64,000 nt of DNA from Eledone cirrhosa (GCA_964016885.1 OZ024742.1:290470001-290534000), one strand, 5' to 3'; positions 5,592 to 58,221 are shown, counted from the first letter of the stretch. Notes: generated by a model not told the origin, from the letters alone. Translations and numbers: made by a program.

Positions 5592-5840
5592 GTGGACAAG
5601 TAATTCAGTATGAGTCTGATACGATCATGCAGGCAAGACGCAGCGAAGTGCCAACTGGTCATGTTGTTTCTACAAGCGCTGGCAAACTCAAATGTAAAAC
5701 TATCATCCATGCAATTGGACCTGTTTGGTATGGTGGCCATAAAAGGGAATTGTTTTTTCTTGAGAGTGTTGTTAAAAATTGTCTGAAATTTCTGGATGAA
5801 CATTCTTATACATCAATTGCAATTCCAGCTATCAGTACAG
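5592..5840 (+). CDS. Exon A of macrodomain (PARP9/14/15-like) gene; central part of first visible macrodomain
   Basis: ttgcag acceptor, gtgagt donor, 249 nt, phase 1-1. Translates (G)GQVIQYESD...GHVVSTSAGKLKCKTIIHAIGPVW...SIAIPAIST(G), typical macrodomain motifs. Confidence 0.92.
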
Positions 5841-7069
5841 GTGAGTGTTCAGCATTTTTAATATTATTCTGTTTAAAATATTACAGAGGAGTGATGGGAA
5901 TAGAACAGTGATAAATGAGATGGTTGGGTTATGTTTTGAGGATGGATAAAAGTGTTTTGGTGATAGGAGTGATGGAAATAGTCAGTGATGAATGTTGTGA
6001 AGAAAAATGGGATGGCTGGATTGTGTGTTAAGGAAGGATGAAAGTGAGAGGAATAGAACCAATGATAAGTATTGTGAAGAGACATGGAATAAGATGTTTG
6101 GATCGTGTTTTGAGATGTTTATTTTAAAGAGTGTGTATTTATCTAAAAACTTCCATTATAATTCTATAAAAACCTTTAAGTTTTGTTTCAAACACCAGCT
6201 TAATAATGAAAAAGTTATATCACTAAATTTCTCCAAATTCATAATCATTAATATTTTCAAAATGATTTAAAAATCATAAGTAGTGTGTTTCATTAAAAAT
6301 ATAGTAGTAAAATGATTAAAGTGTTTATATTTATCTAAAACCCTTCCATTATAATTTTATGTAAGGATATTGGTATAGTTGTTCCAAACTTCAGCTTAAT
6401 AACGAGAAAGTTAGTTATATTACTTAATCCATCCAAATTCTTGATTATTTAAAAAGTTATTTGAAAATCCTAGGCAGTGTCTTTCATTAGCAATATTATA
6501 ACAAATTGTTTAAAAATACATGGATATACTAGATAAATCCAATAGGGTTGTCATGCTTAGAATAACAGTCAAATAGTATCAAGACAACACACAGACACCT
6601 GTGTTCCACCAAATGTAGATGAAATCTAAAAGTGATGATTCTACATGAAAAAGATTTTAACTATTTTGTTACCATATTTCTAATGAAAGCTAATAAAAGG
6701 TGAGGCAGACATGTCAAGAATTGCTGAGCTCTTTGGAGTGAGAACTAGCAGACATGGCTCTGGTTTGAAAGAAGGCTCTTGACAGGGCTTACGATTGTGA
6801 TGGGTAGATATCTGATCACTCAATGTTCTATAGGAGAAACCCACTCACTCCTCACTTGCACATAACTCACCACTCACATGTCACTCATCACCCACTCCTC
6901 ACTCATTCCTCACTTGTACATAACTCACCACTCACATGTCATTAGCTGGTATCTGGAAGATAAGTGGTTCAATTCCTCACAGCAGTCGTTGGCAAATTCT
7001 TTTTCCATCTTTTAAGAGTCTTCACCATATTTTATAAGCTATGTTTATAGCATTTCTGTGCTTGAGCAC

Positions 7070-8239
7070 TGTTGTGCGTTCTAATATTGCAAAACTATAG
7101 CTCCAATTCCAAGCTTTTATTCAATATCTAGAATATAAAAACAGTAATTAGTCTTGAAGAAATATAACAATAATATTTGTAAGAAAAGAAAGATATGCAA
7201 TAAAACAAAGTTATATTGAGGATAGATGAACTTCATAACATTCTTCGCCGATTTTATTGTTCTTCAATATAGCGCTTGGGGGCTACGCGTATACGATTGC
7301 TTCGTCTCACGGGGTCAACAGGAACTTGCGGTAGGATGCTAGTGCTATTTGTCACGGGATTTAAATCAATCACGGTTTCATCTAAGAGTAGATCGTTACT
7401 GTGGTCGATGTTAAGTGGTCTCGGCATATCAGCAGGACTGCTAATCGAACTGTTTTCTTGGATGGATTGATTGTCATTATTTTGACAATTAATTGGGCCA
7501 GGGGAGAGGTCTGCTGTTGAGACTGTACTAGATCTTCCATTTTGATATCTGACAACCGCGAAATTAGCATTCACCATCTGTTCGATAATAACTTTATTCA
7601 CTAATGGGTCGTTCTTTGTACGAATAAAGTTTCTAATATAGGCGTCGTTTCCAACTCTAAGCCAATCTGGTAGGGAAAATCCTAAGGAACCCTTTCGATC
7701 GAATCTAAATATATGGTTATGGGGTGTCTCATTAGTCACTGTACAGAGAAGTGATTGTTGCGAGGCAAGGACTTCTGGTATGATATCTTCCCACTTAGTT
7801 TCTTTAAGTTTGCGCGAGTTAATTATGCATTGAATTCCTTTCCAGAGGACTCCGTTGTAGCGCTCGTTTTGGCCATTTCCTTGTGGATGGTACGGCGAAG
7901 TGCGCGTGTGGGATATACCATTGGATAAGCAGAAATGATCGAATTCTTTGGAGAGAAACTGAGTTCCTCGATCGAAGTGTATGAATGAGGGAGCTTCGAA
8001 TATTGAGAAGATTTGTTTGAGACAGTTAATGACAGTGTTTGAGGTGATGTCACACATACCGAAAGCAAAAGGGAATCTGCTGAATTCGTCTACTGCAGTA
8101 AATAAGTATATGTTTCCTGCTTATATCTAGAATATAAAAACAGTAATTAGTCTTGAAGAAATATAACAATAATATTTGTAAGAAAAGAAGGATATGCAAT
8201 AAAACAAAGTTATATTGAGGATAGATGAACTTCATAACA
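7070..8239 (-). mobile_element. Internally deleted Ty3/gypsy-type LTR retrotransposon (integrase only) with 5-bp TSD AGCAC
   Basis: TG...CA termini; AGCAC at 7065-7069 and 8240-8244. Complete 171-bp 3' LTR at 7070-7240; its part 7124-7240 recurs at 8123-8239 with 1 mismatch. Purine-rich tract precedes the 3' LTR. Integrase ORF 7254..8057 (DRGTQF, YHPQGNGQNER) is the last domain. Confidence 0.9.
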
Positions 8240-8254
8240 AGCACTTTCTTTATA

Positions 8255-8291
<37 letters not shown>

Positions 8292-8392
8292 TTGTATATT
8301 CTTAGTGCTTCAAAAGCCGAAAATTTGACTTTGTACGTTGTTTTTATTAGAAATATATTTTTTTTAAATTAAAAATTTTTTTCTTTCCCCAG

Positions 8393-8566
8393 GAATTTTT
8401 GGAATCCCCATTGAAGAAGGAACCAAATGTATAGTGAAGTCTATTAAGTTTTATTTTGATAATGTCAATTCTAATATAAATCACATCTGTTTGATTGATT
8501 TGAGGAAAGAGGTTATTAGACATTTTAAGCTTCATCTTGAAAGATTGTTTGGAATTGCTGTAAAAG
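8393..8566 (+). CDS. Exon B: C-terminal part of first macrodomain
   Basis: ttctttccccag acceptor, gtagg donor, 174 nt, phase 1-1. Splicing to exon A restores PAISTG-IFG, followed by IPIEEGTKCIVKSIK...HICLID...LFGIAVK. Confidence 0.9.
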
Positions 8567-9285: not shown

Positions 9286-9314
9286 TTTTATTTTTATTTT
9301 TATTTTTATTTTTA

Positions 9315-9345
<31 letters not shown>

Positions 9346-11585: not shown

Positions 11586-12970
11586 TTTCTTTATTTGCCA
11601 CACGGGCGCACAAGAAAAGGGGACAATTCAAAGACACATGCCGGGGATTTTACATACAGTCGTGTAAAAAAAAAATAAATAAAACAAACAAACAATTATA
11701 ACAATCGAAATCCCCAATAGGGGGCAGACGCCACAAATGGGTTGTTTAATACCCCGTCGATAGAACAACCCTCAACTTCAGGAGCATGTTGTGCAAGTGC
11801 TCCTTTCTTCCTTTTGCTCTCTTCTTTAACCTACAAGCTTATAATCAGAAGGCCCAATCACTCGGGCCATTTTCACTTCATTCACCCACCTTTCAGTAAA
11901 TTTACTGGGGTGCAGTGCCTCTCTCTCCACTCTGATTCTTCTTCTAAAGTGATACTTAAAGAAGGCAATCAATTGTTGTCCAGAGAGAAAGGCATCTGTC
12001 CTCAGTCCTCTCAATCTCATCCACCATATAACTTCTTTCACCATAGCCACTGTACAGAGGAAAACCGCCTCTCTTTCGTTTTTGAAAGAGGCTGGCGGTT
12101 TGATCCTTACTATGGACTTGGCAGTCAACTGGATTTGTCTCATATGCAACAGCAGTTGTTTTGCATAGTTCCACAGGTCGCTTACGCCCGGGCAGTGTAC
12201 AATTGCGTGCAAGACGGTTTCAATGTCCTGCTCGCATCTTGGACACGTCCTCTTGGAACGATCCCTGCTGGGGTGTCCGTGCCTGTAGATCTTATCTCGA
12301 ACGGGTAGAACTCCTCGGTAGCACTGCCAGGCCAGGGACCTCTGGAAGTTGTCCATAGGTCCCGGGCGGAAAGTCCTACCGAACAGACTGGTGAGCTCGT
12401 CGTCTTCGATGCCTAGAGTCTCCCCGAGCACGTCGTCGCACTTGTAAAGTACTAACCCTCTATAGAATGTCGAAGTGGAGTCTCCACTGATTGCTGTGCC
12501 CGCTTGACAGAGGACTGTGAGCGCCTGGGCGCATTCAATGTGCCAGGCGCCCATCTTCTTCGATCTTCGCTTGACCCAGGGCTGCAGCTCCGTCAGCGAG
12601 ACAAGTTGTGGGAAGGCCTGTCTCACAAACGGTGCCCACACCGGTTGGTCGGTGAGGTATACCTGGAGATGCCATAGCTTCAGCGCATGTTTGCGCATCA
12701 TTAGCCACGGCATGCCCAGCCCTCCGTTGGAAGGGTGTTGACAGCAGACGGATCTCCTCACCAGTGGAGCCTGCTTCTTCCACAAGAACTGGAAGAGCAT
12801 GCGTTCCATCTTGGTGAGGTATTCACGGAGACAAGGCACGACATTCAAGCGGAAGTAGATGACGGACGCTATGAAAGTGTACGCCACCTCCGCTCGACCT
12901 TTCAAAGACAGTTTGCACTCTGCCCACTTCTGGGTGAGCGCAAATACCTTGGCCATGACCTCGTTCCAGT
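11586..12970 (-). mobile_element. 5'-truncated Tx1/L1-clade LINE (ORF2 C-terminus with zinc finger, 3' UTR) inserted in (GATA)n
   Basis: ORF 11826..13058 has GGLGMP and CPRC...ETVLHAIVHC. AATAAA lies near the 3' end (~11590, - strand). (TAGA)n flanks both sides. Confidence 0.88.
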
Positions 12971-13123
12971 AGATAGATAGATAGATGGATAGAGATAATG
13001 TACACACACGCTCACACACAGATAATGTACACACTCGCACACACACACACACATACATACATAATACTATTCTGCTATGTCAGTACCAGCCTTGTAAAAT
13101 AGTATTTTTGTGTTTATTTTCAG

Positions 13124-13248
13124 GAGGGACTCCATCAAAGACAACTGTTCCTGATTCACAACAAAAACATTTGTCTCCTAGCACCAATCTGGTATATTCA
13201 AAATATATTAATATCAAAATAATGCTTGATTCAATTTCGAATGTCTCT
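13124..13248 (+). CDS. Exon C: linker and first strands of second macrodomain
   Basis: ttttcag acceptor, gtgagt donor, 125 nt, phase 1-0; GGTPSKTTVPDSQQKHLSPSTNLVYSKYINIKIMLDSISNVS, in frame with exons B and D. Confidence 0.85.
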
Positions 13249-13517: not shown

Positions 13518-16011
13518 CCCTTTAGCATTCACATTAATTTTCAAATGTCATGCGTATCTATTCACATTATTTTGAGTTAATTATACTCAAGAGGGTTATC
13601 AATTTTAGCAGATTTGAAATTTTGTCAGCAGATATTAAAATATTAATAATTTACAATTGTATATTTTTACTGATTTTTGTTTATGGGCAGGTGAAATTAA
13701 TTAACAGGTGTAAAAGTAATGACTTTATGGATAAACACAAAAATTTAAACTTTATCTGACTTACCTGTTAGATTTGTTACAAAAAATATCCAACAATGAC
13801 CTAGATGTTGACTTCCAACAATTTTAGCACTTTTCCGAACAGGTGAATTAATTTAAAATGCAGTATAATCAGTGCCTGGTTTTAGTCTGTCTCTACGTTT
13901 TATGCAAATATTTTCATTGAAAAAAATGTATAAAACCCTTTCACCAGTCAAAATAATATTGGCAATGTACTCTTACACAATGTACTCAGTAGATTTAAAA
14001 AGAATGTGCTCAATATTTAAGTTCATTAACAGGTGTGACAGGTGAATGCAGGTGTTTTTGTATCTAATATGCTTTAATATATTTTTTAAATATTATTTTC
14101 AATATTGTCAGACAATATTCCTATCATGATATTGGCCAAAACAGCCTTTACATAATGGCACTTTGCAAAAGGAACACATAAATGAGGTTTCAATTGGATA
14201 ACCTTTAGCAGTTTTTCTCTTTTGTAAAGAGCACATTCGGCAAACCTTCTTCCCATCAATTTTCTCCACTTTATGAAAATCAATATTTCTTTGTTCACCT
14301 CAGATAATTTTGACTTTCTCCCAGCTTTGTGTTTGCAAGAAGTATATCCTCCACACAGCTGAGATGCGACATCCACACAAAATTTCACGTGGCAGTAGTC
14401 CTTTGGTGGTGGCGGATCCTTGTGGCTTTTAGTGAATACAATAAAAGAATTCACAATGGTTAAATTCACTAAAAACCACAAGATATATCTCCACCATTTC
14501 TTCCCAGGGCGTCCAACTGGGTAATATGTGCAATATTGATCGGATTTGTCAACCCCGCCCATACATTTATTATAGGAGAGGTTGACTAAAGGTTTACTTT
14601 CAGCCCCAACTCCTGGTTGCTGGTTAGAAGCAAAATTTGCCGTTTGTCTTTGTACAATGTGGCTAACATGTTCCCTTTTTGCACTTGGAGAGTGTCCCCT
14701 CTCTTTTTAAATTTTGTGATTTTTATTTCTTGGGGTTGCCCTTTGCGATTCCCCATTATTGTACAGCAGGTGTACGTATTTACGAGGGAAGAACCTCTGC
14801 TAGAAGCACTAAAGAAAAAAAACGATCAAAATATATGTGTCTGTGTTGAGAGTGGAATGGTTCAGTCAGAGACCACACAACATCATACCCCAATCCATTT
14901 TTTCTCTCTCCGTTGTGTTTCTTTCCTGTGTAAACATCAAAGTTTGCACAGTAGCCTGTGTCCGATTCACAGAGTTTCCACACCTTGATGCCCCATTTGG
15001 TGGGTTTAGTTGGCATATATTGTCTGAAATGTACTCTACCCTTATACCCAATCATAGCTTCATCAACACTAAGATTTTTCCCAGGTATATATACTGTTTT
15101 AAATTTTTCAGATAGTATTTTAATTAATGGTTGAACTTTATAAAGAGGGTCATAATTCAATTCATTTCTATCAGGGACATTTGAAGTATCAACCAGATGC
15201 AAATACTGGTTTAATTTTAAATACCTTGTTTTTGCCATAATACTTGATATATAAGGGTCACTAAACCTTATATCAGTGTTCCAGTAATTCCATAGTCTTG
15301 GAAATTGTTTTATACCAAACATAATATTTATGGTAAAAAACGCTTGCATCTCCGCAGCATCTGTCAGTCGCCATAACAGATCGGGTTTTCTTTGATTTGA
15401 AATTTGTTGTTGGGCATATCAATTAGTTTCTTTTGCCACAACTTTGGAAAAAGTTTGTGGCAAAAACAAAAAGAAATAATCCAGTGCTTTAGCATCAGGA
15501 GGTAATGTGTGTTGTGGACCAGTGTTTTCAATAAAATCGGGAACATGTATAGGTGTGGTATTTGTTGACCACGTTGCTGTAATATCTTCAATGGCGTCCT
15601 GGAGATCTCCTTTGTTTTCACTTTCAAAACAACAATCATCGTCGGATGAAATTTCAGAAATGTAAACATCTGATTAATTTGAGGATAAATCACTAATATT
15701 ATCTTTTGTTTCATCGTGTGTAAAACCTTCAAAGTCGGTATCGCTACTTTCACAAGCCATGTTGATACACACAAAAAAATCTGTTCTACTTTCAACGTTA
15801 AAAAAACACATGTTGTTTCAAGTTGTTTCACTATGTTAAGTATTAATTTTTGCAATAAGGGCCTAATCTCGAATTGACGAGATTTTGATGACGTATTGTT
15901 TATTTTTAGAACAATATTTTAGTGTGGGTGTAATTGGCCGTTTTGGGCCGGATTGAACAAATGAAGAGGAAATAATTGCGGCCGGTTTGGGCTGGTTTGA
16001 ACACTAAAGGG
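13518..16011 (-). mobile_element. Degenerate piggyBac DNA transposon (PGBD4-like transposase, frameshifted)
   Basis: TTAA TSDs; TIRs CCCTTTAGCATTCA / TGAACACTAAAGGG. ORF fragments contain VDEAMIGYKGR, YMPTKPTKWGIKVW, IYFDRFF and MGGVDKSDQ. Confidence 0.92.
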
Positions 16012-16704: not shown

Positions 16705-16932
16705 GTTGATGTTATTGTTAACAGCACCAATAAAGAACTCAATCTTAATTCTGGTGGTATCTCCAAATTTATTTTGCAAACTGCTGGTCCACAGATACAA
16801 GATGAGTGCAATGCAAATTATCCTCAAGGTATTTCTACATCTACAATAGCCGTCACAAAGGGCTATAACCTGAAATGTGAATATGTATTTCATGTTTGTT
16901 TACCTAGATGGGATAAAGATAAAGCTGATGAA
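16705..16932 (+). CDS. Exon D: N-terminal half of second macrodomain
   Basis: cttgtag acceptor, gtaagt donor, 228 nt, phase 0-0; VDVIVNSTNKELNLNSGGISKFILQTAGPQIQDEC...AVTKGYNLKCEYVFHVCLPRW. Confidence 0.93.
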
Positions 16933-18752: not shown

Positions 18753-21700
18753 TTGCTAACCATTTTACATATCTCTTGCTAACAATTTAAACATCTCTTG
18801 CGAACCATTTGACATCTCTTGTTAACCATTTGACATCTCTTGTTAACCATTTGACATATATTACTCACCATTTGCCAATCTCTTGCTAACCATTTGTCAC
18901 AGGTCTTGCTTACCATTTGACAGATCCCTTGCTAACCATTTGGCATATTTCTTGCTAACCATTTAACATACTTCTTGCTAACCATTTGACATAATTGTTG
19001 CTAACCATTTTACATCTCTTGCTAACCATTTGACATATTTCTTACTAACAAATTGACATCTGCTGCTAACCATTTGACATATTTCTTACTAACAAATTGA
19101 CATCTGCTGCTAACCATTTGACATATCTGTTGTTAACCATTTGACGCATGTCTTGATAACCATGTGACATATCTCTAGCTAATCATTTGACATATCTCTT
19201 GCTAGCCATGTGACACATTGATACTTCTCTTGCTAACCATTTGACACATCTGTGACTAACCATGTGACATATCTTGCTAACTATTTGAAACATCTGTGGC
19301 TAACCATTTGACATATCTCTTGCTAACCATTTGACATCTTTTGCTAACCATTTGACATATCTCTTGATAACCATTTGACATATCTGTTGATAACCATTTA
19401 ACATCTCTTGCTAGCCATGTGACACATTGATATATCTCTTGTTAACCATCTGACACATCTCTTGCTAACCATTTGACATCTTTTGCTAACCATTAGACAA
19501 ATCTCTTGTTAACCATATGACATCTCTTGCTAACCATTTGACACTTCTTTTGCTAACCATTTGACATCTGTTGCTAACCATTTGAAAACGCTTGCTAACC
19601 ATGTACACATCTCTTGCTAACCATTTGACATCTCTTGCTAACCATTTGACACATCTCTTGCTAACCATTTGATATCTGTTGCTAACCATTTGAAAACGCT
19701 TGCTAACCATGTACACATCTCTTTCTAACAATTTGACACATTTCTTGCTAACCATTTGACATATCTTTTGCTAAGCATTTGATATATCTGTTGCTAGCCA
19801 TTTGGCATCTGTTGCTAACCATTTCACATCTTTTGCTAACCATTTCATACATCTTTTGTTAACAATTTGCCATATCTCTTGCTAACCATTTGAAATCTCT
19901 CGCTAAACATTTGACACATCCCTTGCTAACCATTTGGCGTATCTCTTCCTAACTGTTTGACATATTTTGTTAACCATTTGACATCTCTCTTGCTAACCAT
20001 TTGACATCTCTCTTGCTAACCATGTACACATCTCTTTCTAACCATTTGACACATCTGTTGCTAACCATTTGACATCTCTTGCTAAATATTTTACATCTCT
20101 TGGTAACCCTTTGGCATCTCTTGCTAACCATTTGACATATCTCTTGCTAACCATTTGAAATCTCTCGCTAAACATTTGACACATCCCTTGCTAACCATTT
20201 GGCATATCTCTTGCTAACTGTTTGACATATTTTGCTAACCATTTGCCATCTCTCTTTCTAACCATTTGACATCTCTCTTGCTAACCATTTGACATCTCTC
20301 TTGTTAACTGTCTGACATCTTTTGCTAAACATTTGACATATCTCTTGCTCACCACTTGACATCTTTTGCTAACCATTTGACATCTCTCTTGCTAACCATT
20401 TGACATCTCTCTTGCTAACCATGTACACATCTCTTTCTAACCATTTGACACTTCTGTTGCTAACCATTTGACATCTCTTGCTAAATATTTTACATCTCTT
20501 GGTAACCCTTTGGCATCTCTTGCTAACCATTTGACATATCTCTTGCTAACCATTTGAAATCTCTCGCTAAACATTTGACACATCCCTTGCTAACCATTTG
20601 GCATATCTCTTGCTAACTGTTTGACATATTTTGCTAACCATTTGCCATCTCTCTTTCTAACCATTTGACATCTCTCTTGCTAACCATTTGACATCTCTCT
20701 TGTTAACTGTCTGACATCTTTTGCTAACCATTTGACATATCTCTTGCTCACCACTTGACATCTTTTGCTAACTATTTGACATCTCTTGCTAATCATTTGA
20801 CACATCTCTTGCTAACCATTTGACACATCTCTTGTTAACCATTTGACATATTTCTTGTTTACCATTTGACATCTCTTGGTAACCATTTGACATCTGTTGC
20901 TAACCATGTACACATATTTTGCTAACTATTTAACACATTTCTTGCTAACCATTTGACATATCTTTTGCTAAGCATTTGATATATCTGTTGCTAAACATTT
21001 GGCATCTGTTGCTAAATATTTCACATCTTTTGCTAACCATTTCGTACATCTTTTGTTAATAATTTGACATATCTCTTGCTAACCATTTGAAATCTCTCGC
21101 TAAACATCTGACACATCCCTTGCTAACCATTTGGCGTATCTCTTCCTAACTGTTTGACATATTTTGCTAACCATTTAACATCTCTTGCTAGCCATGTGAC
21201 ACATTGATATATCTCTTGCTAACCATCTGACACATCTCTTGCTAACCATTTGACATCACTTGCTAACCATGTGACACATCTTTTGCTAACCATTTGACAT
21301 CTCTCTTGCTAACCATTTGACATCTCTCTTGCTAACCATTTGACATCTCTTGCTAAACATGTACACATCTCTTGCTAACCATTTGACATCTCTTGCTAAG
21401 TATTTTACAACTCTTGGTAACCATTTGGCATCTCTTGCTAAACATTTGACTTATGTCTTGCTAACAGTTGTACATATCTTTTGCTAAGCATTTGATATAT
21501 ATGTTGCTAACTATTTGACATCTTTTTCTAACCATTTCATACATCTTTTGTTAACCATTTGAAATTTCTCGCTAAACATCTGACACATCCTTTGTTAACC
21601 ATTTGGCGTATCTCTTCCTAACTGTTTGACATCTTTTGCTAACCATTTGACATCTCTCTTGCTAACCATTTGACATCTCTCTTGCTAACCATGTACACAT

Positions 21701-24374
21701 CGCTTTCTAACCATTTGACACATCTGTTGCTAACCATTTGACATCTCTTGCTTAATATTTTACATCTCTTGGTAACCCTTTGGCATCTCTTCCTAACCAT
21801 TTGACATATCTCTTGCTAACCATTTGAAATCTCTCGTTAAACATTTGACACATCCCTTGCTAACCATTTGGCGTATCTCTTGCTAACTGTTTGATATATT
21901 TTGCTAACCATTTGACATCTCTCTTGCTAACCATTTGACATCTCTTTTGCTAACCATTTGACATCTCTCTTGCTAACCATTTGACATCTCTCTTGTTAAC
22001 TGTCTGACATCTTTTGCTAACCATTTGACATATCTCTTGCTCACCACTTGACATCTTTTGCTAACTATTTGACATCTCTTGCTAACTATTTGACACATCT
22101 CTTGCTAACTATTTGACATCTCTTGCTAATCATTTGACACATCTCTTGCTAACCATTTGACATATTTCTTGTTAACCATTTGACATCTCTTGGTAACCAT
22201 TTGACATCTGTTGCTAACCATGTACACATGTTTTGCTAACTATTTAACACATTTCTTGCTAAGCATTTGATATATCTGTTGCTAAACATTTGGCATCTGT
22301 TGCTAACCATTTCACATCTTTTGCTAACCATTTCATACATCTTTTGTTAACAATTTGACATATTTCTTGCTAACCATTTGAAATCTCTCGCTAAACATTT
22401 GACACATCCCTTGCTAACCATTTGGCGTATCTCTTCCTAACTGTTTGACATAGTTTGCTAACCATTTAACATCTCTTGCTAGCCATGTGACACATTGATA
22501 TATCTCTTGCTAACCACCTGACACATCTCTTGCTAGCCATTTGACATCACTTGCTAACCATGTGACACATCTTTTGCTAACCATTTGACATCTCTCTTGC
22601 TAACCATTTGACATCTCTCTTGCTAACCATTTGACATCTCTTGCTAACCATGTACACATCTCTTGCTAAGTATTTTACAACTCTTGGTAACCATTTGGCA
22701 TCTCTTGCTAAACATTTGACTTATCTCTTGCTAACAGTTGGACATATCTTTTGCTAAGCATTTGATATATCTGTTGCTAACTATTTGACATCTTTTTCTA
22801 ACCATTTCATACATCTTTTGTTAACCATTTGACATATCTCTTGCTAATCATTTGAAATCTCTCGCTAAACATTTGATACATCCCTTGCTAACCATTTGAA
22901 ATCTCTCGCTAAACATCTGACACATCCCTTGTTAACCATTTGGCGTATCTCTTCCTAACTGTTTGACATCTTTTGCTAACCATTTGACATCTCTTCCTAA
23001 CTGTCTGACATCTTTTGCTAACCATTTGACATATCTCTTGCTCACCACTTGACATCTTTTGCTAACTATTTGACATATTTCTTGTTAACCATTTGACATC
23101 TCTTGGTAACCATTTGACATCCCTTGCTAACCATTTGACATATTTTGCCAACCATTTGACACATCTCTTGCTAATCATTTGACATCTCTTGCTAATCATT
23201 TGACATCTTTTGCGAACCTTTTGACAGCGCTTGCTAACCATTTGACATCACTTGCTAACCATGTGATACATCTCTTGCTAATCATTAAACATCTGTTGCT
23301 AATCATGTGACGCATCTCTTGCTAACCATTTGATACATCTCTTGCTAACTATTTGACATATCTCTTGCTAACCATTTGACATATCTCTTCATAAACATTT
23401 TACATCTCTTGCTAACCACTTGACACATCTTTTGCTAAGCATTTGATATATCTGTTGCTACCCATTTGACATGCCTTGCTGACCATTTGGCATATGTCTT
23501 GCTAACTATTTGACATCTTTTGCTAACCCTTTGACATATTTTGTGCTAACCATTTGACATCTCATTCTATCCATTTGACACACCTCTTGTTAACCATTTG
23601 ACATATCTCTTGTTAACCATTTGACACAACTCTTGATAACATTTGACATCTCTTGCTAACCATTTGGTATAGTTCTTGCTAACTATTTGACATATCTCTT
23701 GTTAACCATTTCACATATCTCTTGCTAACAATTTGACATCTCTTGCTAACCATTTGGCATATTTCTTGCTAACCATTTGACATACTTCTTGCTAACCATT
23801 TGACATATTTGTTGCTAACCATTTTACATCTCTTGCTAACCATTATACATATTTCTTACTAACAAATTGACATCTGCTGCTATCCTTTGGTATATCTCTT
23901 GTTAACCATTTGACGCATGTCCTGATAACCATGTGACATATCTCTAGCTAACCATTTGACCTATCTCTTGCTAGCCATGTGACACATTGATATATCTCTT
24001 GCTAACCATCTGACACATCTCTTGCTAACCATTTGACATCTTTTGCTAACCATTAGACACATCTCTTGTTAACCATATGACATCTCTTGCTAACCATTTC
24101 AGTTCTCTTGCTAACCATTTGACACATCTCTTTCTAATCATTTGACATCTCTTCCTAACCATTAGACACATCTCTTGTTAACCATTAGACCTCTTTTGCG
24201 AATATTTTGACATATCTTGCTAAGCATTGATACATCTCTTGCTAACCATTTGACATCTCTTGCTAACCATTTGACATATCTCTTGCTAACCATTTGGCAT
24301 CTCTTGGTAACCATTTGACATATCCCTTGCTAACTATTTGACATAGCTCTTGCTAGCCATTTGACACATTTCTT
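18753..24374. repeat. Intronic satellite, 20-22 bp monomer, consensus TGCTAACCATTTGACA(TA/CA)TCTCT
   Basis: ~5.6 kb of tandem diverged monomers with recurring variant order. Confidence 0.97.
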
Positions 24375-24816: not shown

Positions 24817-25044
24817 GTATTGCAGTGTTTAGTTAACATAATAATCACTTCTCTAAAAGCTGCTGAGGAAAGGGGAGCCAAAAGCATTGCATTCCCTATA
24901 TTAGGGTCTGGAGAATTGAAGTACCCTCTTGACAAACTACCTTCAACCATGTATGAAGCAGTGAAAACATACTCACATAGAAATACAAGTCATATTGATG
25001 TTGTCAACTTTGTTATTTTACCTAAAGATTCAAACATAATAGAG
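24817..25044 (+). CDS. Exon E: C-terminal half of second macrodomain
   Basis: poly-T ag acceptor, gttggt donor, 228 nt, phase 0-0; VLQCLVNIIITSLKAAEERGAKSIAFPILGSGELKYP...VVNFVILPKDSNIIE. Confidence 0.92.
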
Positions 25045-30742: not shown

Positions 30743-30810
30743 GGAGGTGAGTTTTATTGTAGTACAATAAAGCAATGCAGATATCGGATAAGAAGCACTC
30801 TACAGTTTGT

Positions 30811-34708: not shown

Positions 34709-34796
34709 AAATTTGACGAGTATTTTATATGTCACGTGATGGATACAAGTGGAGCTATTTCAAACACGGAAGAAAGGAATGCATTTATATCAGAGG
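34709..34796 (+). CDS. Exon F: last helix of macrodomain + linker
   Basis: ttcttctaacag acceptor, gtaaag donor, 88 nt, phase 0-1; KFDEYFICHVMDTSGAISNTEERNAFISE(G); bridges exon E (phase 0) to exon C' (phase 1) in frame. Confidence 0.75.
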
Positions 34797-46944: not shown

Positions 46945-47069
46945 GAGAGACTCCATCAAAGACAGCTGTTCCTGATTCACAACAAAAACATTTGTCTCCT
47001 AGCACCAATCTGGAATATTCAAAAAATATTGATATCAAAATAATGCTTGATTCAATTTCTAATATCTCT
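46945..47069 (+). CDS. Exon C' (duplicate of exon C)
   Basis: Same splice sites, 125 nt, open; GETPSKTAVPDSQQKHLSPSTNLEYSKNIDIKIMLDSISNIS. Confidence 0.83.
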
Positions 47070-47487
47070 GTGAGTAAACAAATTTGTATCAAATATTTAA
47101 ATTTACTTATTCTATTTTCAAATAATAAACTATTTATGTTGACTGAAACAGTAAAATGCAACCTCTAAATTTTCTTCATATAAAACTGTCAATCTTTTTA
47201 ACCGTTTTTCTACCAAACCAGCTGAAACTGAAAGAGGTTGCATATCTTTGACATGACTAATAAATCCTCTTGACCCTTTGTTTAGTAATTTCTTTCTTTT
47301 AGCTTGATACCCTTTCTTTCACCAACCAGTTCACAGAATATACCGTATGCATTTTATCAAGCCACTAATACTACAGAGATTGATCTGTCATTGACACAAC
47401 TGACGAGTCCTTTTGACACATAACAACAATATGTAATTATTTTCAGTGTCCAAATTTCTTAGCTGTTACCCTAATTTACTCTTGTAG

Positions 47488-47715
47488 GTTGATGTTATTG
47501 TTAACAGCACCAATAAAGAACTCAATCTTAATTCTGGTGGTATCTCCAAATTTATTTTGCAAACTGCTGGTCCACAGATACAAGAAGAGTGCAATGCAAA
47601 TTATCCTCAAGGTATTTCTACATCTACAATAGCCGTCACAAAGGGCTATAACCTGAAATGTGAATATGTATTTCATGTTTGTTTACCTAGATGGGATAAA
47701 GATAAAGCTGATGAA
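47488..47715 (+). CDS. Exon D' (duplicate macrodomain N-half)
   Basis: Intact ag/gt, 228 nt, one difference from exon D (GAT>GAA). Confidence 0.9.
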
Positions 47716-49553
47716 GTAAGTATCAATTAAATACCATATCATCACCATCATCAACGTCTCCACCACCACCACAACCCCCACTACCACCACCATTGTCATT
47801 ATTGCTATCATTATTTTCCATTCACTTTCTATGTTGGCATAAGTTGGACAGATTGTCAGGGTTTGAGCTTTAAGAATCTCTTCAACAAACATAACACTAG
47901 ATGACTGGTTACCAAAGTGGGTTCTGCCGAACTCAAGGGTTCCGCAAAGGTGTGTCTGGGATTCCATGAAAATGGTAGAGGAGTATATTTGTATTACAAT
48001 CATAGAACAGTATTAGACAGTATTAGACTTTGGGGTTCCCCAAAATATTTCTGAACCTAAAAGTGTTCCGTGTTTGAAAAGGTTTGGAAAAGCCTGCACG
48101 AGATGAAGAAATTCATTAAATTTAGAGGATTAATGAATGACAGATATTTGAATAGATTGGTAGACCAAGCCATATATGAATATAGACCTGAATACAATGG
48201 AACACAAACTTCAGGCACCAAGCTATTAAAAATACACAAACTGGACATAAAGTATACTACTCTCGGATCACAAATGATAGGGAATAAGCCGGGAAGGTCA
48301 GTAACTTTTCTAGGTTGTCTCCATTGATTTTTCAGAAAACCAGAATTAGTTGTTTAGTTTACATATTGTGACACCAAACCATCGTATTCATTCTATAATG
48401 TATGGGATTTCAAGTAATGAAATTTTTCTTCTCATGTATAATGTTTTTTAATGTCTAAAGAAAATTAATTGTCACAGGAATGCTACTTAAAATAAAATTT
48501 CACCAGGGATAGAGTATGAAAATTTAATAAGCAGGGGATTGGAAAAAAACGGAAAAATTAATAAGTGGTGGGGGATGATTATTTGAGACACCTGAGAATA
48601 TATGAATTAAATGTATACAAACTACAAGACAGATGAATATGTAATCATAAATTTGCATCACACCAAACCATAAATTAACAGTTACAATGTACTAAAATGA
48701 ATAAACTCATTATTAACAGTATGCAAACCTAGAAATGAATAACACGATTTATTCATTTGGTTACAAAACTGAAAGTTATAAACTTCATGAAAACAACTGT
48801 TACATTGGCCATTGATGTATAACACATACATGAATGCTCACCATCCATTTACAAGACGAGAAATAGCAGCACACTACACCAGCCACCATACGAGTGAGAC
48901 CAGCCAAGCTTATGGATGTTATCCAACTATCTTGCTTGGGGTCTACCCTTGAGTCTCCTGCCGGTTGATTTTGTCTGTAAAATTTGTCCAGCATTTCTTT
49001 CCTGAGACATTCTTACCACATGCCCATAGTATTGAAGCTGTGATGTAGTGTCTCTACCTGGCGTGCCTCTCTGATCTCCGACCTACAACTTTATCGAGTA
49101 CCATTACTCCAAAGACCTTTCAGCAGAACCCTATTTTGGCCACTTGTATTTGCGATCGTATTCTTTCAGTCCTAATGCAAGATTCATGGTCATAGGTAAG
49201 GGTTGGCACGGAAATCGAATTGAAGATAGCGATTTTGGTTTTTATACCGGCCTCCCTTTTTCTGATTACTGAATGCTGAAGTGGCGCATTACTGAATCAG
49301 CTCCTGCGATGCTTGCACTTAATTCAGCCTCTTGCCTTCCATCACTCATCACAGAAGAAAAACATGTTTCATTGCTGCAAACATCCCTGTCCCATGAAAC
49401 TCTTTTCCTTCTAACATGGTTGGTTCTGCAGCTAAACTTTCAAACTTTTTCTCATTGCCAAGACAATGCTTTCTGATTCCTATTCCATGAATAATAAATA
49501 TTTCCATGGTTGTCATTCTACCAAGCTTTCTTCATTTGATCCTCCTATTATTG

Positions 49554-52500
49554 TTGCTAACCATTTTACACATCTCTTGCTAACCATTTAAACATCTCTT
49601 GCGAAACATTTGACATCTCTTGTTAACCATTTGTCACAGGTCTTGCTTACCATTTGACAGATCCCTTGCTAACCATTTGACATCTCCTTCTAACCATTTG
49701 GCATATTTCTTGCTAACCATTTAACATACTTCTTGCTAACCATTTGACATATTTGTTGCTAACCATTTTACATCTCTTGCTAACCATTTGACATATTTCT
49801 TACTAACAAATTGACATCTGCTGCTAACCATTTGACATATCTCTTGTTAACCATTTGACGCATGTCTTGATAACCATGTGACATATCTCTAGCTAACCAT
49901 TTGACTTATCTCTTGCTAGCCATGTGACACATTGATACATCTCTTGTTAACCAATTGACACATCTGTGACTAACCATGTGACATATCTTGCTAACTATTT
50001 GAAACATCCGTGGCTAACCATTTGACATATCTTTTGCTAACCATTTGACATCTTTTGCTAACCATTTGACATATCTCTTGATAACCATTTGACATATCTA
50101 TTGCTAACCATTTAACATCTCTTGCTAGCCATGTGACACATTGATATATCTCTTGCTAACCATCTGACACATCTCTTGCTAACCATTTGACATCTTTCGC
50201 TAACTATTAGACACATCTCTTGTTAACCATATGACATCTCTTGCTAACAATTTGCCACTTCTCTTGCTAACCATTTGACATCTTTTGCTAACCATTTGAC
50301 ATCGCTTGCTAACCATGTACACATCTCTTTCTAACCATTTGACACATTTCTTGCTAACCATTTGACATATCTTTTGCTAACAGTTTGACATATCTTTTGC
50401 TAAGCATTTGATATATCTGTTGCTAACTATTTGACATCTTTTCCTAACCATTTCATATCTTTTGCTAACCATTTCATACATCTTTTGTTAACAATTTGCC
50501 ATATCTCTTGCTAACCATTTGAAATCTGTCGCTAAACATTTGACACATCCCTTGCTAACCATTTGGCGTATCTCTTCCTAACTGTTTGACATCTTTTGCT
50601 AACCATTTGACATCTCTCTTGCTAACCATTTGACATCTCTCTTGCTAACCATTTGACATCTCTCTTGCTAACCATGTACACATCTCTTTCTAACCATTTG
50701 ACACATCTGTTGCTAACCATTTGACATCTCTTGCTAAATATTTTACATCTCTTGGTAACCCTTTGGCATCTCTTGCTAACCATTTGACATATCTCTTGCT
50801 AACCATTTGACATATCTCTTGCTAACCATTTGAAATCTCTCGCTAAACATTTGACATCTCTTGTTAACCATTTGTCACAGTTCTTGCTTACCATTTGACA
50901 GATCCCTTGCTAACCATTTGACAGATCCCTTGCTAACCATTTGACATCTCTTGCTAACCATTTGGCATATTTCTTGCTAACCATTTAACATACTTCTTGC
51001 TAACCATTTGACATATTTGTTGCTAACCATTTTACATCTCTTGCTAACCATTTGACATATTTCTTACTAACAAATTGACATCTGCTGCTAACCATTTGAC
51101 ATATCTCTTGTTAACCATTTGACGCATGTCTTGATAACCATGTGACATATCTCTAGCTAACCATTTGACCTATCTCTTGCTAGCCATGTGACACATTGAT
51201 ACATCTCTTGCTAACCATTTGACACATCTGTGACTAACCATGTGACATATCTTGCTAACTATTTGACACTTCTCTTGCTAACTATTTGAAACATCCGTGG
51301 CTAACCATTTGATATATCTCTTGCTAACCATTTGACATCTTTTGCTAACCATTTGACATATCTCTTGATAACCATTTGACATATCTGTTGCTAAACATTT
51401 AACATCTCTTGCTAGCCATGTGACACATTGATATATCTCTTGCTAACCATCTGACACATCTCTTGCTAACCATTTGACATCTTTTGCTAACCATTTGACA
51501 TCGCTTGTTAACCATGTACACATCTCTTGCTAACCATTTGACATCTGTTGCTAACCATTTGACATATGTTGCTAACCATTTGACATCGCTTGCTAACCAT
51601 GTACACATCTCTTTCTAACCATTTGACACATTTCTTGCTATTTGACATATCTTTTGCTAAGCATTTGATATATCTGTTGCTAACCATTTGGCATCTGTTG
51701 CTAACCATTTCACATCTTTTGCTAACCATTTCATATATCTCTTGTTAACAATTTGCCATATCTCTTGCTAACCATTTGAAATCTCTCGCTAAACATTTGA
51801 CACATCCCTTGTTAACCATTTGACGTATCTCTTCATAACTGTTTGACATCTTTTGCTAACCATTTGACCTATCTCTTGTTAACCATTTCACATATCTCTT
51901 GCTAACCATTTCACATATCTCTTGCTAACAATTTGACATCTCTTGCTAACCATTTGGCGTATCTCTTCCTAACTGTTTGACATCTTTTGCTAACTATTTG
52001 ACATCTCTCTTGCTAACCATTTGACATCTCTCTTGCTAACCATTTGACATCTCTCTTGCTAACCATGTACACATCTCTTTCTAACCATTTGACACATCTG
52101 TTGCTAACCATTTGACATCTCTTGCTAAATATTTTACATCTTTTGGTAACCCTTTGGCATCTCTTGCTAATCATTTGACATATCTCTTGCTAACCATTTG
52201 AAATCTCTCGCTAACCATTTCACACATCCCTTGCTAACCATTTGACATATCTCTTGCTCACCACTTGACATCTTTTGCTAACTATTTGACATCTCTTGCT
52301 AACCATTTGACACATCTCTAGCTAACCATTTGACATATTTCTTGTTAACCATTTGACATCTCTTGGTAACCATTTGACATCTGTTGCTAACCATGTACAC
52401 ATATTTTGCTAACTATTTAACACATTTCTTGCTAACCATTTGACATATCTTTTGCTAAGCATTTGATATATCTGTTGCTAAACATTTGGCATCTGTTGCT

Positions 52501-55500
52501 AACCATTTCACATCTTTTGCTAACCATTTCGTACATCTTTTGTTAACAATTTGACATATCTCTTGCTAACCATTTGACATCTCTAGCTAAACATTTGACA
52601 CATCCCTTGCTAACCATTTGGCGTATCTCTTCCTAACTGTTTGACATATTTTGCTAAACATTTAACATCTCTTACTAGCCATGTGACACATTGATATATC
52701 TCTTGCTAACCATCTGACACATCTCTTGCTAACCATTTGACATCACTTGCTAACCATCTGACACATCTTTTGCTAACCATTTGACATCTCTCTTGCTAAC
52801 CATTTGACATCTCTCTTGCTAACCATGTACACATCTCTTGCTAACCATTTGACATCTCTTGCTAAGTATTTTACAACTTTTGGTAACCATTTGGCATCTC
52901 TTGCTAAACATTTGACTTATCTCTTGCTAACAGTTTGACATATCTTTTGCTAAGCATTTGATATATCTGTTGCTAACTATTTGACATCTTTTCCTAACCA
53001 TTTCATACATCTTTTGTTAACCATTTGACATATCTCTTGCTAACCATTTGAAATCTCTCGCTAAACATTTGACACATCCCTTGTTAACCATTTGACGTAT
53101 CTCTTCCTAACTGTTTGAAAACTTTTGCTAACCATTTGACCTATCTCTTGTTAACCATTTCACATATCTCTTGCTAACCATTTCACATATCTCTTGCTAA
53201 CAATTTGATATCTCTTGCTAACCATTTGGCATATTTCTTGCTAACCATTTGACATACTTCTTGCTAACCATTTGACATATTTGTTGCTAACCATTTTACA
53301 TCTCTTGCTAACCATTTGACATATTTCTTACTAACAAATTGACATCTGCTGCTATCCTTTGGCATATCTCTTGTTAACCATTTGACGCATGTCCTGATAA
53401 CCATGTGACATATCTCTAGCTAACCATTTGACCTACCTCTTGCTAGCCATGTGACACATTGATATATCTCTTGCTAACCATCTGACACATCTCTTGCTAA
53501 CCATTTGACATCTTTTGTTAACCATTAGACACATCTCTTTTTAACCATATGACATCTCTTGCTAACCATTTCACATCTCTTGATAACCATTTGACCCATC
53601 TCTTGCTAACCATTTGACACATCTCTTGCTAACCATTTCACATCTCTTGATAACCATTTGACCCATCTCTTGCTAACCATTTGACACATCTCTTGCTAAG
53701 CATGTGACACATCTCTTACTAACCATTTGAAATATCTCTTGCTAACCATGTGACACATCTCTTGCTAACCATTTGACACTTCTTGCTAACCATCTCTTGC
53801 TAACCATTTGACATCTTTTGCTAACCATTAGATACATCTCTTGTTACCCATTTGACATCTCTTGCTAACCATTTGACATATCTTACTAACCATTTGCCAA
53901 ATCTCTTGCTAACCGTTTGTCACAGGTCTTGCTTACCATTTGACAGATCCCTTGCTAACCATTTGACATCTCTTGCTAACCATTTGGCATATTTCTTGCT
54001 AACCATTTTACATCTCTTGCTAACCATTTGACATATTTCTTGTTAACCATTTGACGCATGTCTTGATAACCATGTGACATATCTCTAGTTAGCCATGTGA
54101 CACATTGATACATCTCTGGCTAACCATTTGACATCTTTTGCTAACCATTTGACATATCTGTTGCTAACCATTTAACATCTCTTGCTAGCCATGTGACACA
54201 TTGATATATCTCTTGCTAACCATCTGACACATCTCTTGCTAACCATTTGACATCTTTTGCTAATCATTAGACACATCTCTTGATAACCATTTGACACTTC
54301 TCTTGCTAACCATTTGACATCTCTTGCTAACCATTTGACACATCTCTTGCTAACCATTTGACATCTGTTGCTAACCATTTGACATCACTTGCTAACCATG
54401 TACACATCTCTTTCTAACCATTTGACACATTTCTTGCTAACCATTTGAAATCTCTCGCTAAACATTTGACACATCCCTTGCTAACCATTTGACATCTCTC
54501 TTGCTAACCATTTGACATCTCTCTTGCTAACCATTTGACACATCTGTTGCTAACCATTTGACATCTCTTGCTAAATATTTACATCTCTTGGTAACCCTTT
54601 GGTATCTCTTGGTAACCATTTGACATATCTCTTGCTAACCATTTGAAATCTTTCGCTAAACATTTGACACATCCCTTGCTAACCATTTGGCGTATCTCTT
54701 GCTAACTGTTTGACATATTTTGCTAACCATTTGCCATCTCTCTTGCTAACCATTTGACATCTCTCTTGTTAACTGTCTGACATCTTTTGCTAACCATTTG
54801 ACATATCTCTTGCTCACCACTTGACATCTTTTGCTAACTATTTGACATCTCTTGCTAACCATTTGACACATCTCTTGCTAACCATTTGACACATCTCTTG
54901 CTAACCATTTGACATATTTCTTGTTAACCATTTGACATCTCTTGGTAACCATTTGACATCTGTTGCTAACCATGTACACATATTTTGCCAACTATTTAAC
55001 ATATTTCTTGCTAACCATTTGACATATCTTTTGCTAAGCATTTGATATATCTGTTGCTAAACATTTGGCATCTGTTGCTAACCATTTCACATCTTTTGCT
55101 AACCATTTCATACATCTTTTGTTAACAATTTGACATATCTCTTGCTCACCATTTGAAATCTCTCGCTAAACATTTGACACATCCCTTGCTAACCATTTGG
55201 CGTATCTCTTCCTAACTGTTTGACATATTTTGCTAACCATTTAACATCTCTTGCTAGCCATGTGACACATTGATATATCTCTTGCTAACCATCTGACACA
55301 TTTCTTGCTAACCATTTGACATCACTTGCTAACCATCTGACACATCTTTTGCTAACCATTTGACATCTCTCTTGCTAACCATTTGACATCTCTCTTGCTA
55401 AACATTTGACTTCTCTTGCTAACCATGTACACATCTCTTGCTAACCATTTGACATCTCTTGCTAAGTATTTTACAACTCTTGGTAACCATTTGGCATCTC

Positions 55501-57460
55501 TTGCTAACCATTTAACATATTTCTTGCTAACAGTTGGACATATCTTTTGCTAAGCATTTGATATATCTCTTGCTATCTATTTGACATCTTTTTCTAACCA
55601 TTTCATACATCTTTTGTTAACCATTTGACATATCTCTTGCTAACCGTTTGAAATCTCTCGCTAAACATTTGATACATCCTTTGCTAACCATTTGAAATCT
55701 CTCGCTAAACATCTGACACATCCCTTGTTAACCATTTGGCGTATCTCTTCCTAACTGTTTGACATCTTTTGCTAACCATTTGACATCTCTTCCTAACTGT
55801 CTGACATCTTTTGCTAACCATTTGACATATCTCTTGCTCACCACTTGACATCTTTTGCTAACTATTTGACATATTTCTTGTTAACCATTTGACATCTCTT
55901 GGTAACCATTTGACATTCCTTGCTAACCATTTGACATATTTTGCCAACCATTTGACACATCTCTTGCTAATCATTTGACATCTCTTGCTAATCATTTGAC
56001 ATCTTTTGCGAACCTTTTGACAGCGCTTGCTAACCATTTGACATCACTTGCTAATCATGTGACGCAGCTCTTGCTAACCATTTGATACATCTCTTGCTAA
56101 CTATTTGACATATCTCTTGCTAACCATTTGACATATCTCTTCATAAATATTTTACATCTCTTGCTAACCACTTGACACATCTTTTGCTAAGCATTTGATA
56201 TATCTGTTGCTAACCATTTGACATGCCTTGCTGACCATTTGGCATATCTCTTGTTAACTATTTGACATCTTTTGCTAACACTTTGACATATTTTGTGCTA
56301 ACCATTTGTCATCTCTTTCTAACCATTTGACACACCGCTTGTTAACCATTTGACATATCTCTTGTTAACCATTTGACATGCCTTGCTGACCATTTGGCAT
56401 ATCACTTGCTAACTATTTGCCATCTTTTGCTAACACTTTGACATATTTTGTGCTAACCATTTGACATCTCTTTCTAACCATTTGACACACCGCTTGTTAA
56501 CCATTTGACATATCTCTTGTTAACCATTTGACGCAACTCTTGATAACCATTTGACATCTCTTGCTAACCATTTGGTATAGTTCTTGCTAACTATTTGACA
56601 TATCTCTTGTTAACCATTTCACATATCTCTTGCTAACCATTTCACATATCTCTTGCTAACAATTTGACATCTCTTGTTAACCATTTGGCATATTTCTTGC
56701 TAACCATTTGACATACTTCTTGCTAACCATTTGACCTATTTGTTGCTAACCATTTGACATCTCTTGCTAACCATTTGACATATTTCTTACTAACAAATTC
56801 AAATCTGCTGCTATCCTTTGGCATATCTCTTGTTAACCATTTGACGCATGTCCTGATAACCATTTGACCTATCTCTTGCTAGCCATGTGACCCATTGATA
56901 TATCTCTTGCTAACCATCTGACACATCTCTTGCTAACCATTTGACATCTTTTGCTAACCATTAGACACATCTTTTGTTAACCATATGACATCTCTTGCTA
57001 ACCATTTCACATCTCCTTGATAACCATTTGACCCATCTCTTGCTAACCATTTGACCTTTTTTGCTAACCATGAGACACATCTCTTGCTAACCATTAGACA
57101 CATCTCTTGTTAACCATTTGACACCTCTTGCTAACCATCTGACCCATCTCTTGCTAACCATTAGATACATCTCTTGTTAACCATTTGACATCTCTTGCTA
57201 ACCATTTCAGTTCTCTTGCTAACCATTTGACACATCTCTTTCTAACCATTTGACATCTCTTCCTAACCATTAGACACATCTCTTGTTAACCATTAGACCT
57301 CTTTTGCGAATATTTTGACATCTCTTGCTAAGCATTTGATACATCTCTTGCTAACCATTTGACATCTCTTGCTAACCATTTGACATATCTCTTGCTAACC
57401 ATTTGGCATCTTCTGCTAACCATTTGACATATCTCTTGCTAACCATTTGACACATTTCTT
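49554..57460. repeat. Intronic 20-22 bp satellite, copy 2 (~7.9 kb)
   Basis: Same monomer and flanks as 18753-24374. Confidence 0.97.
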
Positions 57461-57679
57461 CACTGATTCTCATTCTTCCTCTGTGGTTGTTTTCCTCTTT
57501 CCTCAAAAGTCTTTCTTATGGATTTCTTTTCAGTCTTCTTGTTTCCTATGATAGATATAATTTTAAGTGTTTTAAATCTTCTGCTCATTATTTCCTGATT
57601 TCAACGGCAGCATCTAACTAGGTATAGTTTTATTCTTCTTTTCTTTTGTAACTGGCAACAAACAAACTGGTTGCTTGAC

Positions 57680-57905
57680 ACTTGCTGTATTGCTGGTTAT
57701 TGCCTTGTTGAGACTTGCTGAATTGCTGGTTACTGCCTTGTTGGGACTTACTGTATTGCTGGTTACTGCCTTGTTGGGACTTACTGTATTGCTGGTTACT
57801 GCAATGTTGGGACTTACTGTATTGCTGGTTACTGCCTTGTTGGGACTTACTGTATTGCTGGTTACTGCCTTGTTGGGACTTGCTGTATTGTTTGGACTTA
57901 CTGTA
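57680..57905. repeat. 33-bp minisatellite, expanded copy (about 6-7 units)
   Basis: Same unit as 24595-24740. Confidence 0.88.
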
Positions 57906-57993
57906 GGTTGCTGTTGAAAGTGACTTACAATAACATTATTGTAAGATGTCATTGTAAAATATTAATTGCAAATTATTAAACTTTTTTTTTTAG

Positions 57994-58221
57994 GTATTGC
58001 AGTGTTTAGTTAACATAATAATCACTTGTCTAAAAGCTGCTGAGCAAAAGGGAGCCAAAAGCATTGCATTCCCTATTTTAGGGTCTGGAGAATTGAAGTA
58101 CCCTCTTGACAAACTACCTTCAACCATGTATGAAGCAGTGAAAACATACTCACATAGAAATACAAGTCATATTGATGTTGTCAACTTTGTTATTTTACCT
58201 AAAGATTCAAACATAATAGAG
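57994..58221 (+). CDS. Exon E' (duplicate macrodomain C-half)
   Basis: Intact splice sites, 228 nt, open; differs from exon E by S>C, E>Q, R>K and one silent change. Confidence 0.9.

What the first reader, a model, noticed from the sequence alone, without database searches (positions are those of the whole stretch)
5592..58221. Macrodomain number expanded by in-frame tandem duplication of a 4-exon, ~34-kb module in a PARP14-like gene
Seen: exons C(125)+D(228)+E(228)+F(88) total 669 nt = 223 codons and begin and end in phase 1. They are followed by C', D' and E' with intact splice sites and no stops, so A-B-C-D-E-F-C'-D'-E' is one open frame. Known: vertebrate PARP9/14/15 carry 2-3 tandem macrodomains and act in antiviral ADP-ribose signalling. 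Inference: this invertebrate gene is gaining macrodomains by symmetric-module duplication and may be copy-number variable.
Basis: partly seen in the sequence, partly recalled or inferred. Interest (0 to 1): 0.75.

Follow-up and report, generated by a model that had tools for sequence, protein, structure and literature searches.

The report
Octopus PARP14 with swapped reader domain
This octopus-type PARP14 immune-family gene holds two near-identical in-frame copies of one macrodomain but only the family's usual three macrodomains in all, and a change in its first macrodomain is predicted to block tag removal, so it likely adds and reads ADP-ribose tags without erasing them, within a four-gene cluster that shuffles these parts.

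Summary
The exons, phases and open frame are as described, and F', KH-WWE and PARP catalytic exons follow past the window. But this gene is not gaining macrodomains. It is gene 2 of a four-gene tandem PARP14-like cluster in an octopod and has three macrodomains, the ancestral number. Its last one was replaced by a ~24-kb copy of its own D-E-F tract; the older end module was likely deleted at an LTR element. Both duplicates group with PARP14 macrodomain 2 (reader); no octopod copy groups with macrodomain 3 (AU test does not exclude it). Macrodomain 1 carries Arg at the glycine equal to human G832, where Glu diminishes hydrolase activity. The real expansion is neighbour gene 3: seven macrodomains, four macro-KH-WWE repeats, broken catalytic exons. 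An RNA-type run holds spliced A-B-C, C-D, D-E, D-E2 and WWE-to-C joins; F-C' was not seen. Octopus RefSeq models already hold 1-6 macrodomains, and this scan noted gene 3 and other octopus clusters before. A real new variant of a known, fast-evolving family.

The parts
5592..5840 (+). Exon A, middle of macrodomain 1 (phase 1-1); the domain begins in exon K upstream of the window (G000:C3:290463127-290464647), which carries the Gly-to-Arg codon at C3:290464620
8393..8566 (+). Exon B, end of macrodomain 1 (phase 1-1)
13124..13248 (+). Exon C, linker and first strand of macrodomain 2 (phase 1-0)
16705..16932 (+). Exon D, N-terminal half of the MD2-like macrodomain (phase 0-0); 11 copies in the genome, all in this cluster
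18753..24374 (.). 23-bp satellite, 252 copies, in the D-E intron; marks modules of the first type
24817..25044 (+). Exon E, C-terminal half of the MD2-like macrodomain (phase 0-0)
34709..34796 (+). Exon F, linker (phase 0-1), closes the symmetric module
46945..47069 (+). Exon C', start of the second module; belongs to the older F-C' context shared with genes 1 and 3
47231..64000 (+). Young copy of this gene's own D-E-F tract (continues to G000:C3:290541736, then an LTR element, then exons G, H, P1-P3 to C3:290570935)
47488..47715 (+). Exon D'
49554..57460 (.). 23-bp satellite, 352 copies; the end modules of the other genes carry a 33-bp satellite instead
57994..58221 (+). Exon E' (E type, 98% like E; the end modules of genes 1, 3 and 4 have the 87% diverged E2 type)

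Best explanation
The window is the middle of an open-frame PARP14-like gene with three macrodomains, the last two being recent copies of one macrodomain-2-type module, and the protein likely writes and reads mono-ADP-ribose but is predicted not to erase it, because macrodomain 1 has Arg at a pocket glycine. Shown: exon order RRM-K-A-B-[C-D-E-F]-[C'-D'-E'-F']-KH8/WWE-ART; four such genes in tandem over ~736 kb with 1, 2, 2 and 6 modules; most exons or exon groups start and end in phase 1, so modules can be gained or lost in frame. Inferred history: octopods lost macrodomain 3 and refilled the slot by duplicating macrodomain 2 (gene 1 keeps this state, with a diverged end module E2/F2). In gene 2, unequal crossing-over between modules near exon D added a D-E-F tract (four macrodomains), then a deletion from inside an LTR element to ~320 nt before exon G removed C-D-E2-F2, leaving three. 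Inferred function: by analogy to human PARP14 G832E, gene 2 would raise ADP-ribose marks on its targets; an antiviral role is assumed from the family only.
For: Gene models and splice sites. Second module's D-to-post-F sequence best matches this gene's own first module, incl. stretches found nowhere else in the cluster, and carries the 23-bp, not the 33-bp satellite. Junction: post-F intron ends at C3:290541736, a 2.35-kb element with 98.5% alike 264-nt terminal repeats follows, then pre-G intron. Trees: all 39 octopod non-first macrodomains of 123 rows form one group (SH-aLRT 100), this genome's 11 their own group (99); in a 48-row careful tree they sit inside mollusc MD2 (99/96), apart from 12 of 12 MD3 (100/99); PDB best hit of exon D is PARP14 MD2 (49 bits vs 32 for MD3 and 28 for MD1 entries). 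Gly-to-Arg maps to G832 by the 212-residue offset to G1044 in the 3VFQ alignment; it is in genes 2 and 4, so hardly a base-call error. ART exons keep H-Y-I-type motifs. RNA-type run X4 covers exons only and holds spliced joins. DNA depth per assembled copy 7.1-10.5, r 0.97 and 0.996.
Against: AU test does not reject grouping the octopod repeats with MD3 (p 0.099). F-C' splice not seen among 9 X4 contigs; no contig carries a letter unique to gene 2, so expression of this particular gene is not shown. Gene 2 lacks exon R1 of genes 1 and 3 and no start exon was found, so it may be truncated or silent. Variants among copies show no purifying signal (118 non-synonymous vs 19 synonymous sites, ratio 1.5, p 0.086), which fits neutral decay as well as diversifying selection. 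Arg for Glu at G832 is an analogy, not an assay. Depth test had no single-copy control and cannot resolve one module among 11.
Confidence: 0.68

Rival explanations
1. Net gain: the gene is adding macrodomains by tandem module duplication.
For: Two in-frame modules; neighbour gene 3 has six modules and 4 of 17 Octopus models scanned have 4-6 macrodomains; the inferred history passes through a four-macrodomain stage.
Against: Three macrodomains in total, equal to gene 1 and to the ancestral number; no third module between F' and G.
Confidence: 0.1
2. Neutral churn: gene 1 is the working gene; genes 2-4 are young, decaying duplicates whose frames stay open only because they are young and phase-symmetric.
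For: Each of genes 2-4 has a lesion: R1 loss and MD1 Gly-to-Arg (2), broken ART exons (3), split R2 and lost A-B (4). The X4 contig over K-A-B-C has gene-1-type letters. No purifying signal.
Against: No stop or frameshift in 4.6 kb of gene 2 or in 7.86 kb of gene 3 before its ART exons, against 3 lesions in those ~0.58 kb; gene 3's rearranged K exon stays in frame; a spliced H-C join exists in X4. This rival overlaps the best explanation in the history and differs only in function.
Confidence: 0.3
3. Assembly artefact: the second module is an uncollapsed haplotype.
For: Copies are 95-99% alike and hold long satellites; no long read was available.
Against: Different flanks and inserts, a unique LTR junction, same F-C' context in three genes; depth follows copy number; no N in the 864 kb around the window.
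Confidence: 0.04

Closest known systems
Octopus sinensis / O. vulgaris PARP14-like gene models (P0009, P0015, P0001, P0002, P0034)
   Same: 65-75% identity over exon D; RRM-KH-MD1-MD2-like repeats-ART layout; repeated MD2-type module; some models also join K straight to C (P0014).
   Different: This genome's 11 repeats form their own group, so they were multiplied or homogenised separately. They keep the loop-2 glycine that some Octopus copies lack. No retrieved protein has a full KH8-WWE unit before a macrodomain (0 of 136), as gene 3 does.
Human PARP14 (MD1 hydrolase, MD2/MD3 readers, KH8, WWE, mono-ART)
   Same: Same domain order and three macrodomains; MD1 motifs present in genes 1 and 3.
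   Different: Third macrodomain is an MD2 copy, not MD3; gene 2's MD1 has Arg at G832; fewer RRM/KH domains found.
Vertebrate PARP9 and PARP15
   Same: Partial PARP14 duplicates: PARP9 keeps the eraser with a dead ART, PARP15 keeps readers and ART without MD1 (PMC13224862, PMC10221186 passages). Gene 3 resembles the first, genes 2 and 4 the second.
   Different: Independent and very young (paralogous exons 93-100% alike); function of the octopod copies untested, gene 3's stop would invite nonsense-mediated decay.

Membership tests
PARP14-like macro-PARP | Tandem macrodomains N-terminal to a PARP catalytic domain in one frame | tested here: met
   3 macrodomains, PF00644 on exon P3 above cut-off, 1543-aa open model
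PARP14-like macro-PARP | RRM and KH domains N-terminal, KH8-WWE before ART | tested here: met
   R2 hits RRM_PARP14 models below cut-off (E 8e-5); G-H aligns by profile to the KH8-WWE span of vertebrate PARP14; direct Pfam WWE hit only E 0.02
PARP14-like macro-PARP | MD1-MD2-MD3 order | tested here: not met
   third domain groups with MD2; AU p 0.099 leaves MD3 affinity not rejected
PARP14-like macro-PARP | MD1 hydrolase residues (loop-1 Asn and Gly, loop-2 hydrophobic + aromatic) | tested here: not met
   gene 2 has N and I-F but Arg for the second loop-1 Gly; genes 1 and 3 meet all
PARP14-like macro-PARP | Mono-ART catalytic motifs (H, Y, hydrophobic third residue) | tested here: met
   WHGT, GVYFA, IYVIFHD aligned by eye with retrieved PARP14s; H-Y-L/I rule recalled
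PARP14-like macro-PARP | ADP-ribosyltransferase, binding and antiviral activity | not testable with these tools
   needs assays
Inactive reader macrodomain (PARP14 MD2 type) | G1044-equivalent pocket glycine kept, no loop-2 aromatic | tested here: met
   SGGIS aligns with RGPLS; loop 2 GSGEL

The most novel reading that the evidence does not exclude
Within one young cluster an octopod has re-evolved the vertebrate PARP14/PARP9/PARP15 split: a full eraser-reader-writer (gene 1), an eraser-dead writer (gene 2), a writer-dead eraser with six readers and four KH-WWE units that is spliced (gene 3), and a one-reader writer (gene 4), all working proteins under diversifying selection, with macrodomain 3 replaced lineage-wide by macrodomain 2 copies.
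Probability: 0.2. Interest if true: 0.72.

Novelty: new variant of a known kind. Interest (0 to 1): 0.42.

Why it matters
Macro-PARPs are known to duplicate and to lose hydrolase activity repeatedly in vertebrates, and three distinct macrodomains are held to be the ancestral form. Octopods appear to have dropped macrodomain 3 and to run on copies of macrodomain 2 whose number changes in frame. The cluster offers near-identical natural variants (98-99% alike) that differ in eraser, reader number and writer, a ready test of what each part does in an invertebrate. For the window's own gene the change is a replacement with no net gain, which lowers the surprise.

Tried and rejected
No RNA holder was listed by the look-up of sequencing runs; X4's RNA nature is my inference from exon-only cover and a GT..AG joint. 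F-C' join: not among the 9 X4 contigs laid on 46900-47745; contigs show presence only. Runs X5 and X6 gave short diverged pieces, nothing usable. First lay was crowded by repeats, so its joint table showed no exon joins. Search for a start exon with the first 62 aa of P0019 found only R2. Search with exon H for longer proteins found none at E 0.001 among 95 candidates (weak evidence). First-pass H donor was 3 nt short; corrected to 364 nt, frame unchanged, so lengths are one residue short per H exon. One search failed on a grouping error and was rerun; one search is the quick tree, the careful one did not finish. A positive-selection claim was not made: the non-MD2 subset gave p 0.03 (33 vs 2) but it is a post-hoc split and the whole set gives p 0.086. 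Back-splicing as source of the H-C join was considered: letters argue against gene 1's circle, but a gene 4 circle is not excluded. PF01661 search of the genome gave 6 further Macro matches elsewhere, of 20; I did not fetch them, so an MD3-bearing gene elsewhere is not excluded. No structure or complex was predicted.

Full report
Observation. Pfam Macro passes its cut-off on 5 of 8 exon peptides. The window is G000:C3:290470001-290534000. Nearest proteins are Octopus PARP14-like models at 65-75% identity (31 of 33 hits), so the animal is an octopod.

Context. Exon D has 11 copies and exon A 3, all within one cluster. I fetched 1.0 Mb around the window and mapped exons. Four genes lie head to tail. 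Gene 1 (290.237-290.353 Mb): R1 R2 K A B [C D E F][C D E2 F2] G H P1 P2 P3, open, 3 macrodomains. Gene 2 (this window): R2 K A B [C D E F][C' D' E' F'] G H P1-P3, open, 3 macrodomains. Gene 3: R1 R2 K(shortened, in frame) A B [C D E F], then [C D E2 F2 G H] four times, then C D E2 F2 and catalytic exons with a stop, a 4-nt insertion and a ~330-nt insertion; 7 macrodomains, 2635 aa to the first stop. Gene 4: split R2, K joined to C without A-B, one module, G H, intact catalytic exons. G-H is KH8-WWE by profile match to vertebrate PARP14.

How gene 2's second module arose. From 47231 to C3:290541736 the sequence is a 95-100% copy (less in the satellite) of gene 2's own D-E-F tract, with stretches that match only that tract. 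D-E introns of first modules carry a 23-bp satellite (3 of 3) and those of E2 modules a 33-bp one (7 of 7); gene 2's second module has the 23-bp type. After the copied tract come a 2.35-kb element with two 264-nt terminal repeats (98.5%) and then ~320 nt of pre-G intron. There is no homology between post-F and pre-G introns, so I infer crossing-over that added D-E-F followed by a deletion from within the element, not simple conversion. Net macrodomain number is unchanged.

Which macrodomain. Exon D's best solved relatives are PARP14 MD2 entries; exon E agrees weakly. In a quick tree of 123 domains from 39 of 140 proteins (isoforms, fragments and most fish left out; domains under 140 aa dropped), all 39 octopod non-first domains form one group inside MD2, and this genome's 11 form their own. 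A careful 48-row tree puts them among mollusc MD2 (99/96), MD3 apart (100/99); the AU test does not reject a join with MD3 (p 0.099). PMC10221186 (section 3.1 read whole; passages) calls three tandem macrodomains ancestral, molluscs included, and finds only MD1 active. So octopods likely lost MD3 and repeat MD2.

Mechanism. The MD2 copies keep the pocket glycine equal to human G1044 and lack the loop-2 aromatic: predicted readers. MD1 of genes 1 and 3 reads HIGGL and keeps loop-2 I-F; genes 2 and 4 read HIGRL. By the 3VFQ alignment the changed glycine is 212 residues before G1044, i.e. G832; PMC10499325 (passages) reports that G832E blocks the site, diminishes hydrolase activity and raises cellular mono-ADP-ribosylation. 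Gene 2 is therefore predicted to write and read without erasing. This is analogy; an antiviral role rests on the family (PMC13224862 and PMC4038475, passages).

Reads. In DNA-type runs X1 and X2 (one sample), 7 of 8 listed contigs each (the integrase-element contig left out) give 7.1-10.5 depth per assembled copy over 3-11 copy stretches, r 0.97 and 0.996; no single-copy control, and the tool warns that such depth is no copy number. Run X4 covers exons only: one 1383-nt contig fits exon A exactly and also C with B's end before it; C'-D' skips 418 nt GT..AG; loose ends show D to E, D to E2 and the end of H before C. H is followed by C only in gene 3, and the joined string is not genomic, so the macro-KH-WWE repeat is spliced at least once unless the join is a back-splice. 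F-C' was not among the 9 contigs; record 2 starting at 46948 implies a second, unlaid input that would fit gene 1's F-C' (my inference; depth sums). Nothing proves expression of gene 2 itself.

Selection. Variant sites among copies: 118 non-synonymous, 19 synonymous, ratio 1.5, p 0.086; gene 3's K and catalytic exons, gene 4's R2 and 14 codons at an indel were left out. No purifying signal; diversifying selection not shown.

Known or new. Of 17 Octopus models scanned, counts run 1-6 and 4 have four or more (isoforms included). PARP14 clusters, births and losses are described in vertebrates, lancelet and sponges. Four literature searches (listings only) showed no paper on octopod PARP14 structure; 'PARP14' with 'octopus' gave 3 papers, 2 listed, neither on this by title and abstract start. 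No supplements were read. Earlier AI notes of this scan cover gene 3 and other octopus genomes; I reached my reading before seeing them. Added here: the whole-cluster map, the replacement history, the MD3 loss, the MD1 change and the spliced H-C join. Verdict: real, a new variant of a known kind, interest 0.42.

Noticed in passing
G000:C3:290598561-290821858 (L027-L049): Gene 3: seven macrodomains, four macro-KH8-WWE repeats, broken catalytic exons; H-to-C splice present in run X4. Layout absent from 136 retrieved proteins.
   Followed up: partly
G000:C3:290858317-290973168 (L053-L064): Gene 4 lacks exons A-B, so K joins C; Octopus model P0014 shows the same join, suggesting repeated loss of macrodomain 1.
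   Followed up: partly
G000:C3:290629490-290630467 (L030): Gene 3's K exon is 978 nt instead of 1521-1542, with ~60 unrelated bases at the break, yet stays in frame without a stop.
   Followed up: partly
G000:C3:290541737-290544082 (L021-L022): 2.35-kb element with 264-nt terminal repeats at the deletion junction; a relative (87%) lies inverted in gene 1's E2-F2 intron. No coding check done.
   Followed up: partly
G000:C3:290371890-290374419 (L011): Short-unit satellite runs up to ~90 nt before R2 where genes 1 and 3 have exon R1; gene 4 lacks R1 too, with a different edge.
   Followed up: partly
window 7257-8120 (-), 11829-13079 (-), 14089-14706 (-), 204-668 (-), 43009-44805 (+), 38830-39552 (+): Mobile-element remains in introns: integrase (rve), zf-RVT, DDE_Tnp_1_7 transposase, reverse transcriptase, endonuclease, PHD-like finger.
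   Followed up: partly
window 31531-32730 (-), between inverted repeats 30810-31316 and 32688-33208: 400-aa open stretch with no Pfam hit, looks Penelope-like (recalled); absent from the second module, which keeps one repeat arm.
   Followed up: no
exon D, 16897-16926, and its 10 copies: Five of six amino-acid-changing variant sites of exon D fall in its last 12 codons and occur in mixed combinations, as expected from exchange between copies.
   Followed up: partly
G000 C3:261.69-261.70 Mb, C2:279.43, C4:286.60, C11:15.05, C14:38.81 Mb: Six other Macro matches in the genome, not examined.
   Followed up: no
G000:C23:885055-888682 (+) and 1444641-1448286 (-): A PARP-domain gene appears twice with identical scores in inverted orientation.
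   Followed up: no
G000:C3:290195951-290196150: 200-N assembly gap ~41 kb upstream of gene 1's first found exon; the cluster's left edge may be incomplete.
   Followed up: no
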